In this document: piece after piece, positions 60,962-61,416 of the stretch
How positions within the stretch are numbered: the first letter of the stretch is position 1
How the letters are laid out: the number at the start of each line of letters is the position of its first letter
Program-made: the position numbers and the translations under genes
Notes under the pieces: model-generated
The model's database searches: none
Seen by the model: only the letters and a program-made list of their open reading frames with translations
What the model was told of the DNA's origin: nothing
NCBI RefSeq assembly: GCF_058153355.1
Contig: NZ_CM177019.1
DNA length: 64,000 bases
Direction: 5' to 3' (one strand)

Positions 60962-60993
60962 CTCGCTGATTAAAATATCCAGGGAAGGAAATA

Positions 60994-61256
60994 TGATCGA
61001 TCTGAAGAACCAGGAACGGGAGATTATCAATTTAATGTTCAGCCAGGGTATATCCTGGCTAACCGCCGTGCGTATCAGGCATAAACTATCACTTGCTGAA
61101 GTTAGTAAAATGTTGGGTATCTCGATTAATTCTCTAAAACAAATCGAAAAGACGGAACGGCTTAGTTCAAACATCAAAAACAAAATGGCAGGAATTTATG
61201 GTTGTCCGCCAGAGTTGCTGATATGCCCTTACTGGATGACGGCTGAACATAAATGA
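60994..61256 (+). CDS. small XRE-family helix-turn-helix protein (hypothetical), occupying the position where K-12 has yjjJ
   Basis: 87 codons from MIDLKNQEREIINLM...; LSLAEVSKMLGISINSLKQIEKTE is a typical XRE/Cro-type HTH. Track ORF 60879..61256 is the longer in-frame version. No adjacent toxin-like partner is visible. Confidence 0.45.
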
Positions 61257-61354
61257 ATAGATTCGTGAATAGATACTCGAATGGATTTAATTTTCTATCC
61301 ATATGAAAAATAATAGTAAATCTATAAATCAGTCGCTATTGATGAATAGATACT

Positions 61355-61390
61355 AAAAAGCCGGAGCGGTCTCCCGCTCCGGCTTCACAC
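61355..61390. terminator. bidirectional rho-independent terminator downstream of deoD
   Basis: aaaaagccggagcgg-tctc-ccgctccggcttc hairpin with A-run upstream and T-rich tail on the minus strand. Confidence 0.8.
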
Positions 61391-61416
61391 GACAATCGCC
61401 TTTCAGCGAAACACAA

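What the first reader, a model, noticed from the sequence alone, without database searches (positions are those of the whole stretch)
60962..61416. yjjJ (HipA-like kinase gene) absent; replaced by a small XRE-HTH ORF and TGAATAGATACT direct repeats
In K-12 a ~1.3-kb HipA-family gene (yjjJ) lies between lplA and deoD on the deoD strand. Here the interval is only ~455 bp and instead holds an 87-codon XRE-type HTH ORF on the opposite strand, followed by three copies of TGAATAGAT (two as the perfect 12-mer TGAATAGATACT at 61266 and 61343, one overlapping the ORF stop at 61254). This could be a relic of a different toxin-antitoxin or regulatory cassette (orphan antitoxin/repressor with its operator repeats), or the ancestral state before yjjJ was gained.
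Basis: partly seen in the sequence, partly recalled or inferred. Interest (0 to 1): 0.5.

Follow-up and report, generated by a model that had tools for sequence, protein, structure and literature searches.

The report
XRE gene replacing hipH, operator left behind
In this E. coli strain the toxin-kinase gene yjjJ (hipH) has been replaced by a small XRE-type regulator gene, and the TGAATAGAT repeats beside it are the deeply conserved upstream boxes of the missing kinase gene, which gives the first concrete candidate operator for HipH.

Summary
The lplA-deoD interval is 455 bp, lacks yjjJ, and carries an 87-codon XRE-type ORF (60993-61256, +). TGAATAGAT occurs at 61254, 61266 and 61343, with a degenerate fourth copy at 61278.

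It is not rare. 4057 of 5426 complete E. coli genomes have this arrangement and 1348 have yjjJ; the two are mutually exclusive. RefSeq annotates the ORF as a helix-turn-helix domain-containing protein.

The interpretation needs revising. The repeats lie in DNA shared with K-12, where they sit directly 5' of the yjjJ start codon. The same layout, three boxes at a 12-nt period plus one distal box, precedes yjjJ in all 14 Enterobacterales loci examined. It also precedes three HipH homologues of 35-41% identity, one named Burkholderiaceae. The repeats are therefore a HipH-family cis element, most likely its operator, left behind when the kinase ORF was replaced.

The XRE gene is real: dN/dS is 0.09-0.24, it is 86-87 aa in four lineages, and the AlphaFold2 model has pLDDT 89.5. 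It is also dispensable: 10 of 22 sampled genomes carry a nonsense or frameshift allele. Whether the XRE protein uses the boxes is unresolved.

The yjjJ state is older, so "ancestral state before yjjJ" is rejected.

The parts
59945..60961 (+). lplA (lipoate-protein ligase A), the left flank. Homology with the yjjJ-type allele stops exactly at its stop codon.
   Evidence: ORF list; RefSeq annotation of the 99.6% identical locus; blastn breakpoints.
60962..61247 (.). The 286-bp allele-specific segment (GC 41%). It stands in place of the 1330-bp yjjJ coding segment of K-12 (GC 54%).
   Evidence: blastn of the window against the K-12-like locus: shared DNA ends at 60960/60961 and resumes at 61248. 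GC values.
60993..61256 (+). 87-aa XRE/Cro-C1-type HTH gene. It starts 31 nt after the lplA stop with an AAGGA Shine-Dalgarno-like motif and no terminator in between, so it is probably co-transcribed with lplA (inferred).
   Evidence: Translation. Pfam HTH_3 E 7.8e-5 and Sigma70_r4 E 1.7e-5. phrog_7241 E 2e-9. AlphaFold2 pLDDT 89.5 with seven helices. Foldseek top hits are XRE repressors. dN/dS 0.09-0.24. Orthologues of 86-87 aa at 40-49% identity at the same site in three other lineages. PGAP annotates it.
61248..61250 (-). CAT, aligned with the ATG start codon of yjjJ in K-12. This is the right-hand breakpoint of the replacement.
   Evidence: Alignment A1; blastn.
61254..61262 (+). Box R1, TGAATAGAT. 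It overlaps the XRE stop codon TGA.
   Evidence: Conserved in all yjjJ-type and XRE-type loci.
61266..61274 (+). Box R2, TGAATAGAT(ACT), 12 nt after R1. This is the best-conserved box.
61278..61286 (+). Box R3, degenerate here (CGAATGGAT). It is TGAATGGAT or TGAATAGAT in other E. coli.
61287..61320 (-). Relic of the yjjJ promoter, read on the minus strand. A -10-like TTAAAT abuts R3. The block aligned with the -35 (TTTACA/TTGACA in yjjJ-type loci) is degraded to about 3 of 6 here.
   Evidence: Promoter-position analysis across 10 genera; module alignment. The strict consensus scan finds nothing.
61343..61351 (+). Distal box R4, TGAATAGAT(ACT), next to the deoD terminator.
   Evidence: Distal box present in every yjjJ locus examined.
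61358..61385 (-). deoD intrinsic terminator hairpin: 12-bp perfect stem, with the T-run on the minus strand.
   Evidence: Inverted repeat I6; sequence; dominates the RNA fold.
61417..62136 (-). deoD (purine nucleoside phosphorylase), the right flank.

Best explanation
The interval is one of two old, mutually exclusive alleles of the yjjJ (hipH) locus. In this allele the kinase ORF, from its start codon to the lplA stop codon, has been replaced by a 286-bp segment. That segment carries a small XRE-family HTH gene on the opposite strand, probably expressed as the last gene of the lplA transcript.

The roughly 110 bp that used to lie upstream of yjjJ were kept. The TGAATAGAT repeats are that region's four HipH boxes: three tandem copies at a 12-nt period and one distal copy.

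In yjjJ-carrying genomes, the tandem boxes run from a conserved -10-like element to the start codon, covering the predicted transcription start and the whole roughly 33-nt leader. The distal box lies upstream of the -35. This is the layout of a repressor operator array. The only gene that always travels with the boxes is hipH itself, whose N-terminal winged HTH has an almost invariant recognition helix. The most likely mechanism in those genomes is therefore autoregulation of hipH by its own HTH domain binding the boxes.

In this window the cognate binder is absent and the -35 is degraded. The boxes are a left-behind operator whose continued conservation implies some secondary use. That use is possibly binding by the XRE protein, but this is not shown.

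Shown: the allele structure, the breakpoints, the population frequencies, the box conservation and the box-hipH co-occurrence, and that the XRE gene is real and partly decaying.

Inferred: the promoter position, which protein binds the boxes, and co-transcription with lplA.
For: Allele structure and frequency:
- Homology with K-12 ends at the lplA stop and resumes at the CAT aligned with the yjjJ ATG.
- 4057 of 5426 complete genomes carry the XRE allele and 1348 carry yjjJ, with no evidence of both in one genome.

Boxes belong to hipH:
- All 14 Enterobacterales yjjJ loci examined have the layout of three tandem boxes plus one distal box. These are eight from an LplA-anchored survey plus K-12 and CFT073, and six chosen by protein similarity only: Salmonella, Erwinia, Cedecea, Pantoea and two more.
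- In Pantoea the upstream neighbour is a different gene and the boxes are still present.
- Three metagenomic HipH homologues of 35-41% identity carry ATCTATTCA boxes directly 5' of the gene. Two were scored against NCBIfam NF007297 and pass its cutoff. One is named Burkholderiaceae by NCBI.
- Box columns are 92% identical among yjjJ-type genera, against 45% for non-box columns.
- Empty lplA-deoD sites and sites with other inserts have no boxes. Cargo-less remnants show decaying boxes.
- The triple array occurs once per E. coli genome.

Binder and promoter:
- The HipH recognition helix SQ[AP]T[FV]SR is conserved from E. coli to Burkholderiales.
- A -35 (TTGACA/TTTACA) at -64 and a -10 at about -41 from the ATG recur in 8-9 of 10 genera.
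- Literature: hipH is monocistronic, has an N-terminal HTH, and its control is unknown (PMC8262856). c-di-GMP acts on hipH through the promoter region, and the HTH is needed for toxicity and nucleoid localisation (PMC11452175).

XRE gene.
Against: - No direct binding data exist. A ChIP-exo screen of myc-tagged YjjJ in K-12 reported no binding sites at all (PMC8464067).
- The strict sigma-70 scan finds no promoter in the module. The promoter is inferred from relaxed matches at conserved positions.
- The boxes remain conserved in XRE-type loci of three genera: 76% box identity against 55% non-box, and 82% against 43% between allele types. A pure relic would not show this, so something other than HipH must constrain them there.
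- The three distant HipH loci were found through the boxes. They show the association exists but not how general it is outside Enterobacterales.
Confidence: 0.6

Rival explanations
1. One reading: the XRE protein is an orphan antitoxin or repressor and the TGAATAGAT repeats are its own operators. The XRE dimer would bind the boxes downstream of its gene, for example to silence the leftover leftward promoter that would otherwise run antisense into XRE-lplA.
For: - Boxes are conserved well beyond neutral expectation in XRE-type loci of Escherichia, Superficieibacter and Enterobacteriaceae UBA3516, although these genomes lack yjjJ.
- The XRE stop codon lies in box R1 in all four XRE-type lineages, so gene and module have travelled together.
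- The XRE protein has a confident Cro/C1 DNA-binding fold.
- HipB, another XRE protein of 88 aa, is reported to neutralise YjjJ (PMC9948734).
Against: - The boxes are a HipH-family feature found from Burkholderiales to Enterobacterales without any XRE gene.
- The XRE recognition helix is not conserved between genera (SINSLKQ against TAEALKR, TPDALKR and TPESLAR), while the boxes stay the same.
- One lineage (L006) keeps an intact 87-aa XRE gene but has lost the boxes.
- The array lies 3' of the gene, not at its promoter.
- Direct 9-mers at a 12-bp period are not a typical XRE-dimer palindrome.
- There is no BLASTP similarity to HipB.
- About 45% of sampled carriers have a null allele with intact boxes.
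Confidence: 0.2
2. The boxes are bound by a host transcription factor encoded elsewhere, for example the unknown factor that couples hipH transcription to c-di-GMP. Neither HipH nor the XRE protein binds them. The factor keeps the boxes under selection in both alleles.
For: - Boxes are conserved in both allele types although the two cargo proteins have unrelated HTH domains.
- ChIP-exo found no YjjJ binding sites (PMC8464067).
- c-di-GMP control of hipH maps to the promoter region and no regulator is named in the passages read (PMC11452175).
Against: - The triple array is unique in each E. coli genome, so the factor would have a single array target.
- The boxes are absent wherever neither cargo is present.
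- The boxes accompany hipH in Burkholderiales with unrelated neighbours. This would need the same trans factor and specificity in distant orders, whereas hipH is the only constant partner.
Confidence: 0.15
3. The XRE arrangement is the ancestral state and yjjJ was gained later in K-12-like and B2 lineages.
For: - The XRE allele is the majority in E. coli.
- It also occurs in E. marmotae and other Escherichia.
Against: - yjjJ with its boxes occupies the same deoD/(lplA)/ytjB site in E. albertii, Salmonella, Citrobacter, Kosakonia, Leclercia, Silvania, Pseudocitrobacter, Cedecea, Erwinia and Pantoea.
- The boxes beside the XRE ORF are HipH-family boxes.
- XRE-type modules share a derived degraded -35.
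- The XRE family is tiny: only 28 hits among 1.84 billion representatives.
Confidence: 0.03
4. The ORF and the repeats are chance features of an AT-rich spacer, with no gene and no element.
For: - Pfam matches are weak, with E about 1e-4 to 1e-5.
- Many truncated variants exist in databases.
- A nonsense allele is common.
Against: - dN/dS is 0.09-0.24 among intact alleles.
- Length of 86-87 aa and the HTH core are conserved at 40-49% identity in other genera at the same site.
- AlphaFold2 pLDDT is 89.5.
- The 9-mer is about tenfold over-represented and conserved across orders.
Confidence: 0.02

Closest known systems
yjjJ / hipH locus of E. coli K-12 (HipH, clade X HipA-homologous kinases; Gerdes et al. 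2021, PMC8262856; NCBIfam NF007297)
   Same: Same chromosomal site between deoD and lplA. Same roughly 110-bp upstream module with the four TGAATAGAT boxes and the same deoD terminator; the shared flank is 83% identical.
   Different: The kinase ORF is entirely absent. An unrelated 87-aa XRE gene on the opposite strand stands in its place, and the -35-like element of the module is degraded.
hipBA: HipB (XRE family, 88 aa) and its four operators in the hipBA promoter
   Same: A small XRE-type protein and a multi-site array associated with a Hip-kinase locus. HipB can neutralise YjjJ when overproduced (PMC9948734).
   Different: - No detectable sequence similarity to HipB.
- HipB is not among PDB profile hits with E up to 1.
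- From my own knowledge, HipB operators are palindromes (TATCC-N8-GGATA) upstream of the operon. Here the sites are direct 9-mers at a 12-bp period lying 3' of the XRE gene.
- No kinase gene is present.
Small stand-alone Cro/C1 (XRE) repressors such as CylR2, SinR N-domain, C-proteins of restriction-modification systems, and the phage regulator family phrog_7241
   Same: Five-helix HTH fold. Best sequence and structure matches are CylR2 (E 3.8e-4), Foldseek hits with TM 0.7-0.76 normalised by target length, and phrog_7241 (E 2e-9).
   Different: - It carries an extra N-terminal helix (residues 4-18) and a short C-terminal tail.
- It matches only the C-terminal half of phrog_7241.
- The family is almost confined to this one chromosomal site.
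- No target promoter is known.
Orphan antitoxin or toxin-antitoxin remnant loci at chromosomal hot spots
   Same: Patchy distribution, replacement and decay at a fixed site between core genes, and a frequent null allele.
   Different: The surviving regulator is not the cognate partner of the lost toxin. The surviving operator belongs to the toxin's own cis-encoded HTH domain.

Membership tests
XRE / Cro-C1 HTH regulators (Pfam HTH_3, PF01381) | Significant match to the family profile | tested here: met
   HTH_3 E 7.8e-5 over residues 25-75, HTH_19 E 5.9e-4 and HTH_31 E 5e-3. The matches are weak but consistent. A PDB profile search gives CylR2 at E 3.8e-4.
XRE / Cro-C1 HTH regulators (Pfam HTH_3, PF01381) | Five-helix Cro/C1 fold | tested here: met
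   AlphaFold2 model with pLDDT 89.5 and pTM 0.79, with helices at 22-29, 34-41, 45-54, 59-69 and 73-76 plus an N-terminal helix at 4-18. Top Foldseek hits are all XRE repressors with rmsd 1.5-2.1 A over 53-60 residues.
XRE / Cro-C1 HTH regulators (Pfam HTH_3, PF01381) | Sequence-specific DNA binding | not testable with these tools
No covariation was seen between the recognition helix and the boxes.
Type II antitoxin of HipB type | Encoded in one operon with a cognate Hip kinase toxin | tested here: not met
   No kinase ORF is in the interval. The neighbours are lplA and deoD. XRE-type E. coli genomes lack yjjJ.
Type II antitoxin of HipB type | Sequence relationship to HipB | tested here: not met
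   BLASTP gives no alignment at E up to 100. HipB is absent from the PDB profile hits.
Type II antitoxin of HipB type | Operators in its own promoter (autoregulation) | tested here: not met
   The boxes lie 3' of the ORF. Only a 31-nt spacer separates it from lplA, and that spacer has no usable promoter match.
Type II antitoxin of HipB type | Neutralises a toxin | not testable with these tools
   Needs co-expression with YjjJ or HipA.
yjjJ/hipH locus (NCBIfam NF007297 kinase plus upstream box module) | HipH kinase ORF present | tested here: not met
   tblastn and blastn with K-12 YjjJ find nothing in the window interval (logic). K-12 YjjJ scores 675 bits against NF007297, cutoff 401.
yjjJ/hipH locus (NCBIfam NF007297 kinase plus upstream box module) | Upstream module: three tandem TGAATAGAT boxes at a 12-nt period plus one distal box | tested here: met
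   R1, R2 and R4 are exact and R3 has two mismatches. Spacing is the same as in K-12 and in 13 other yjjJ loci.
yjjJ/hipH locus (NCBIfam NF007297 kinase plus upstream box module) | Position between deoD and lplA/ytjB | tested here: met
Operator array of HipH (proposed here) | Boxes co-occur with hipH irrespective of neighbours and taxon | tested here: met
   Present in 14 of 14 Enterobacterales loci, six of them picked by protein only. Present at three distant loci found through the boxes. Absent from empty sites.
Operator array of HipH (proposed here) | Bound by the HipH N-terminal HTH | not testable with these tools
   Published ChIP-exo of tagged YjjJ found no sites (PMC8464067), so this is open or negative. 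The recognition helix is conserved together with the boxes.

The most novel reading that the evidence does not exclude
The HipH boxes are still a working operator in the three quarters of E. coli that lack hipH. On this reading the 87-aa XRE protein has taken over the array, so the locus is a natural two-allele system. One allele is a self-regulated toxin kinase. The other is a small repressor sitting on the same operator, where it controls a leftward promoter antisense to XRE-lplA. The common Q50* lineage would be a third, derepressed state. This would be a case of a toxin's cis-regulatory module being inherited by an unrelated DNA-binding protein.
Probability: 0.2. Interest if true: 0.6.

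Novelty: new member of a known kind. Interest (0 to 1): 0.45.

Why it matters
How HipH (YjjJ) is controlled is an acknowledged open question. It has no antitoxin gene, and its N-terminal HTH has no known target. Its c-di-GMP-dependent transcription maps to the promoter region, and no regulator is named in the passages read (PMC8262856, PMC11452175).

The comparative data define a precise candidate: a 9-bp box (ATCTATTCA on the hipH strand) in a fixed layout of three tandem copies plus one distal copy. It is conserved from Enterobacterales to Burkholderiales, and it can be tested directly by EMSA, footprinting and box mutagenesis.

The data also show that K-12 is in the minority. About 75% of complete E. 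coli genomes have no hipH, including E. coli B, W and O157:H7. Persistence or biofilm phenotypes attributed to HipH therefore cannot be general for the species.

The XRE replacement allele, with a frequent natural null (Q50*), offers ready-made genetic contrasts.

As a genome feature, however, it remains an ordinary kind of thing: gene replacement at a hot spot, an XRE regulator, and an operator array.

Tried and rejected
- **XRE gene as an inverted or degenerate copy of the YjjJ N-terminal HTH domain.** hhalign gives probability 25% over 23 residues of generic HTH motif only. tblastn with YjjJ finds nothing in XRE-type loci. Rejected.
- **HipB relationship.** No alignment.
- **A conserved minus-strand small ORF downstream of the relic promoter.** The 27-codon ORFs in E. 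coli and UBA3516 start in different antisense frames, and Superficieibacter and L006 have no such start codon. This comes from reading the junction sequences. Rejected.
- **RNA element.** Rfam shows nothing credible; the best hit is 19 bits against a 44-bit cutoff. RNA folds are dominated by the deoD terminator.
- **Mobile origin.** The only plasmid hits are megabase-sized records, 0.4-4.9 Mb, that look like mislabelled chromosome sequence. Phage hits are at most 38% identical generic regulators.
- **A wider regulon.** The triple array is single-copy per genome. The other TGAATAGAT sites in the window are isolated.
- **Strict sigma-70 scans.** These found no promoter in the module in either allele. 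The one + strand hit overlaps the XRE ATG and cannot serve that gene.
- **Protein P0077 (69% identical).** It is a C-to-T converted, bisulfite-like E. coli read set and not a homologue.
- **Metagenome pattern scan.** It was swamped by (GATA)n-type microsatellites, and only 3 of 80 loci were relevant.
- **Second homologue search, with the Burkholderiales HipH.** It returned only relatives of at least 95% identity, so it gave no unbiased distant sample.
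Full report
**1. The observation**

- The window has lplA at 59945-60961 (+) and deoD at 61417-62136 (-), so the interval is 455 bp.
- It holds one ORF with HTH character, 60993-61256 (+), of 87 codons.
- TGAATAGAT occurs exactly at 61254 (its TGA is the ORF's stop codon), 61266 and 61343. The last two are TGAATAGATACT.
- A fourth, degenerate copy (CGAATGGAT, 61278) continues the 12-nt period.
- The 9-mer is found 6 times in the 64-kb window against 0.62 expected. The other three are one isolated site inside a 208-bp duplication upstream of nhaA and one isolated site at 37719.
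- The perfect 12-bp hairpin at 61358-61385 has its T-run on the minus strand and is the deoD terminator.

**2. How common the arrangement is**

- A megablast of the interval against 5426 complete E. coli genomes finds the same lplA-ORF-deoD arrangement in 4057 of them. PGAP annotates the ORF as "helix-turn-helix domain-containing protein".
- yjjJ is present in 1348 genomes, always once and always chromosomal. The two classes add up to 5405, so they are alternatives at one site.
- K-12 and B2 strains such as CFT073 have yjjJ. E. coli B REL606, W (KO11FL) and O157:H7 have the XRE allele.
- No paper in the searchable library mentions the ORF or the repeat sequence.

**3. Breakpoints**

- Against a K-12-like locus, homology stops at the lplA stop codon and resumes at window 61248. 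There, CAT aligns with the ATG of yjjJ on the other strand.
- So 286 bp (GC 41%) stand in place of 1330 bp of yjjJ coding sequence (GC 54%).
- Everything from 61248 to deoD, including all the repeats, is shared with K-12 at 83% identity.
- In K-12 this shared DNA is the yjjJ upstream region. It carries three perfect tandem boxes ending 2 nt before the yjjJ ATG, plus the distal box next to the deoD terminator.
- The repeats are therefore not specific to the XRE cassette.

**4. The site across Enterobacteriaceae**

Eighty species-representative genomes were retrieved through LplA and classified.
- Most have a 50-110-bp "empty" lplA-deoD spacer, including Salmonella subspecies, most Citrobacter, Klebsiella, Enterobacter and E. 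whittamii.
- Six have yjjJ at 60-95% identity: E. albertii, a Citrobacter, Kosakonia, Pseudocitrobacter, Leclercia and Silvania.
- Three have the XRE gene: E. coli, Superficieibacter and Enterobacteriaceae UBA3516.
- Several have unrelated inserts: a REP-associated transposase, DUF1120-like secreted proteins, a lipoprotein and a membrane protein.
- Four have remnants.
- Boxes with at most one mismatch occur in every yjjJ, XRE or remnant locus. They do not occur in arrays at empty sites or beside other inserts; the only exception is one isolated single match in a DUF1120-like insert (L059).
- E. whittamii keeps only a scrap of the distal box.

**5. The boxes belong to hipH**

- All six sit next to ytjB, with or without lplA, and all six show three tandem boxes ending at the start codon plus a distal box about 65 nt further.
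- In Pantoea the upstream neighbour is a HAD hydrolase rather than deoD, and the boxes are still there.
- Including K-12, CFT073 and the six survey genomes, this makes 14 of 14.
- Among yjjJ-type genera the box columns are 92% identical, against 45% for the remaining module columns.
- A metagenome scan for two spaced boxes returned mostly microsatellites. It also returned three loci whose only relevant gene is a HipH homologue of 35-41% identity with ATCTATTCA boxes immediately 5' of it: 2+1, 5+1 and 2+2 copies.
- The two of these loci that were scored pass the NCBIfam YjjJ equivalog cutoff, and NCBI names one Burkholderiaceae. These three loci have unrelated neighbours and no XRE gene.
- The HipH recognition helix (SQATFSR in E. 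coli, SQPTVSR and SQPTFSR in the distant ones) and the wing (G-x-A-R-x-x-x-Y-x-L) are conserved in parallel.
- The only constant partner of the boxes is hipH itself, so the most economical reading is that they are the operator of its own N-terminal winged HTH.

**6. Anatomy of the module**

- Read on the hipH strand, 8-9 of 10 genera have a -35-like hexamer at -64 from the ATG: TTGACA in Salmonella and Citrobacter, and TTTACA in E. albertii and Leclercia.
- A -10-like hexamer (TTAAAT, TAATAA or TATAAA) lies at about -41, abutting box R3.
- This puts the predicted start inside R3 and makes the whole roughly 33-nt leader out of boxes. The distal box lies upstream of the -35.
- This is inference. 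The strict consensus scan finds nothing, and no start-site data were available.
- A published ChIP-exo screen found no YjjJ binding sites in K-12 (PMC8464067). This is the main evidence against self-binding, although that screen treated YjjJ as lacking an HTH and used native expression.

**7. The XRE gene**

- It matches HTH_3 and related Pfam families weakly, phrog_7241 at E 2e-9 and CylR2 in the PDB.
- An AlphaFold2 model from seven sequences is confident, with pLDDT 89.5. It shows a Cro/C1 five-helix core plus an N-terminal helix. Foldseek returns only XRE repressors.
- The family is tiny. An exhaustive HMMER search of 1.84 billion representatives gives 28 hits. Nearly all are Escherichia fragments, plus one 43% identical 87-aa protein and a 129-aa phage-type relative.
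- That 43% relative, and the Superficieibacter and UBA3516 proteins, lie at the same place: lplA, XRE gene, deoD.
- Among intact E. coli alleles dN/dS is 0.09-0.24. It is a real gene.
- It starts 31 nt after lplA (6 nt in Superficieibacter) with no terminator between, so co-transcription with lplA is likely (inferred).
- It is also dispensable. In an evenly spaced sample of 22 of the 4057 carriers, 12 are intact, 9 share one nonsense mutation (Q50*, in the recognition helix) and 1 is frameshifted.

**8. Does the XRE protein use the boxes?**

For:
- The boxes are kept in XRE-type loci of three genera whose XRE proteins are only 45-49% identical. Box identity is 76% against 55% for non-box columns, and 82% against 43% between allele types.
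- With about 50% neutral identity, the chance of keeping 8 or more of 9 bases is about 0.02 per box.
- The junction, with the stop codon in R1, is the same in all four lineages.

Against:
- The XRE recognition helix differs between genera while the boxes do not.
- One lineage has an intact XRE gene and no boxes.
- The array is downstream of the gene.
- All XRE-type modules share a degraded -35.

I leave this open at about 0.2. A host factor binding the boxes in both alleles is a further possibility at about 0.15.

**9. Direction of change**

- yjjJ with its boxes at the deoD/ytjB site in both Erwiniaceae and Enterobacteriaceae shows that the yjjJ state is old.
- The HipH boxes beside the XRE gene are its footprint.
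- Empty sites, scars and remnants show repeated loss.
- The deep divergence of the two E. coli allele classes also shows that both are old haplotypes kept in the species. The non-box module is largely dissimilar, and synonymous divergence at the lplA 3' end is about 0.3 even among XRE alleles.

**10. Verdict**

- It is wrong on whose element it is and on polarity.
- As an object it is an ordinary kind of thing: allelic gene replacement at a hot spot, an XRE regulator, and an operator array.
- The by-product is useful. It is a sharply defined, apparently undescribed candidate operator for the HipH kinase family.
- A second by-product is the finding that hipH is absent from about three quarters of sequenced E. 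coli.

Noticed in passing
window 19620-20035 and 20114-21289: The nhaA 5' end and its upstream region are directly duplicated over about 208 bp, with copies starting near 19620 and 19828. The duplication is followed immediately by an IS110-family-like transposase ORF of 391 aa (+). It looks like an IS-associated duplication in front of nhaA (18505-19671, -).
   Followed up: partly
L090, L095, L097-L099, L110, L112-L114 (E. coli genomes), codon 50 of the XRE ORF (equivalent to window 61140-61142): One nonsense allele (CAA to TAA, Q50*, linked to L57F and a perfect third box) is present in 9 of 22 evenly sampled XRE-type genomes. PGAP flags these as pseudogenes. It is a single old mutation carried by a large E. 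coli lineage.
   Followed up: yes
L003 (CFT073) 2397-2855: In CFT073 an IS200C copy sits between yjjJ and deoD. It is inserted right after the distal box, so it separates the hipH upstream module from the deoD terminator.
   Followed up: partly
hit H42, E. coli WB61 (NZ_CP020025.1 673687-673826): Only the first 140 nt of yjjJ (the HTH domain) remain and are annotated as "transcriptional regulator". This is a natural kinase-less HipH HTH remnant.
   Followed up: no
L031, L035, L040, L056, L059, L069, L086 (lplA-deoD interval in other genera): The lplA-deoD junction is an insertion hot spot in Enterobacteriaceae. Occupants include REP-associated tyrosine transposases, DUF1120-like secreted proteins, a lipoprotein, a membrane protein and a 406-aa secreted protein. 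REP or BIME-like arrays occur in L061 and L068.
   Followed up: partly
window 60640-60958 compared with L087-L096: The 3' third of lplA has synonymous divergence of about 0.3 between the window and other XRE-type E. coli, with almost no amino-acid change. This is far above typical within-species values and suggests old haplotypes or imported DNA around the variable site.
   Followed up: partly
P0077 / L004, L005: A "69% identical homologue" in the protein collection is an E. coli locus in which C is systematically read as T (R to W, A to V, P to L, S to F). It is a bisulfite-like or deaminated data set assembled as if normal.
   Followed up: yes
L235 1501-1611 and L236 1501-1515: Gene callers start yjjJ too far upstream in these genomes, giving 478 and 448 aa. 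They translate straight through the box array, and the conserved start codon follows the last box.
   Followed up: yes
L101 3147-3647: The nearest larger relative of the XRE protein is 129 aa and matches phrog_7241 over its full length. It sits 3 nt downstream of a 35-codon ORF and next to a DUF2357/PD-(D/E)XK gene. This may be a small two-gene module.
   Followed up: no
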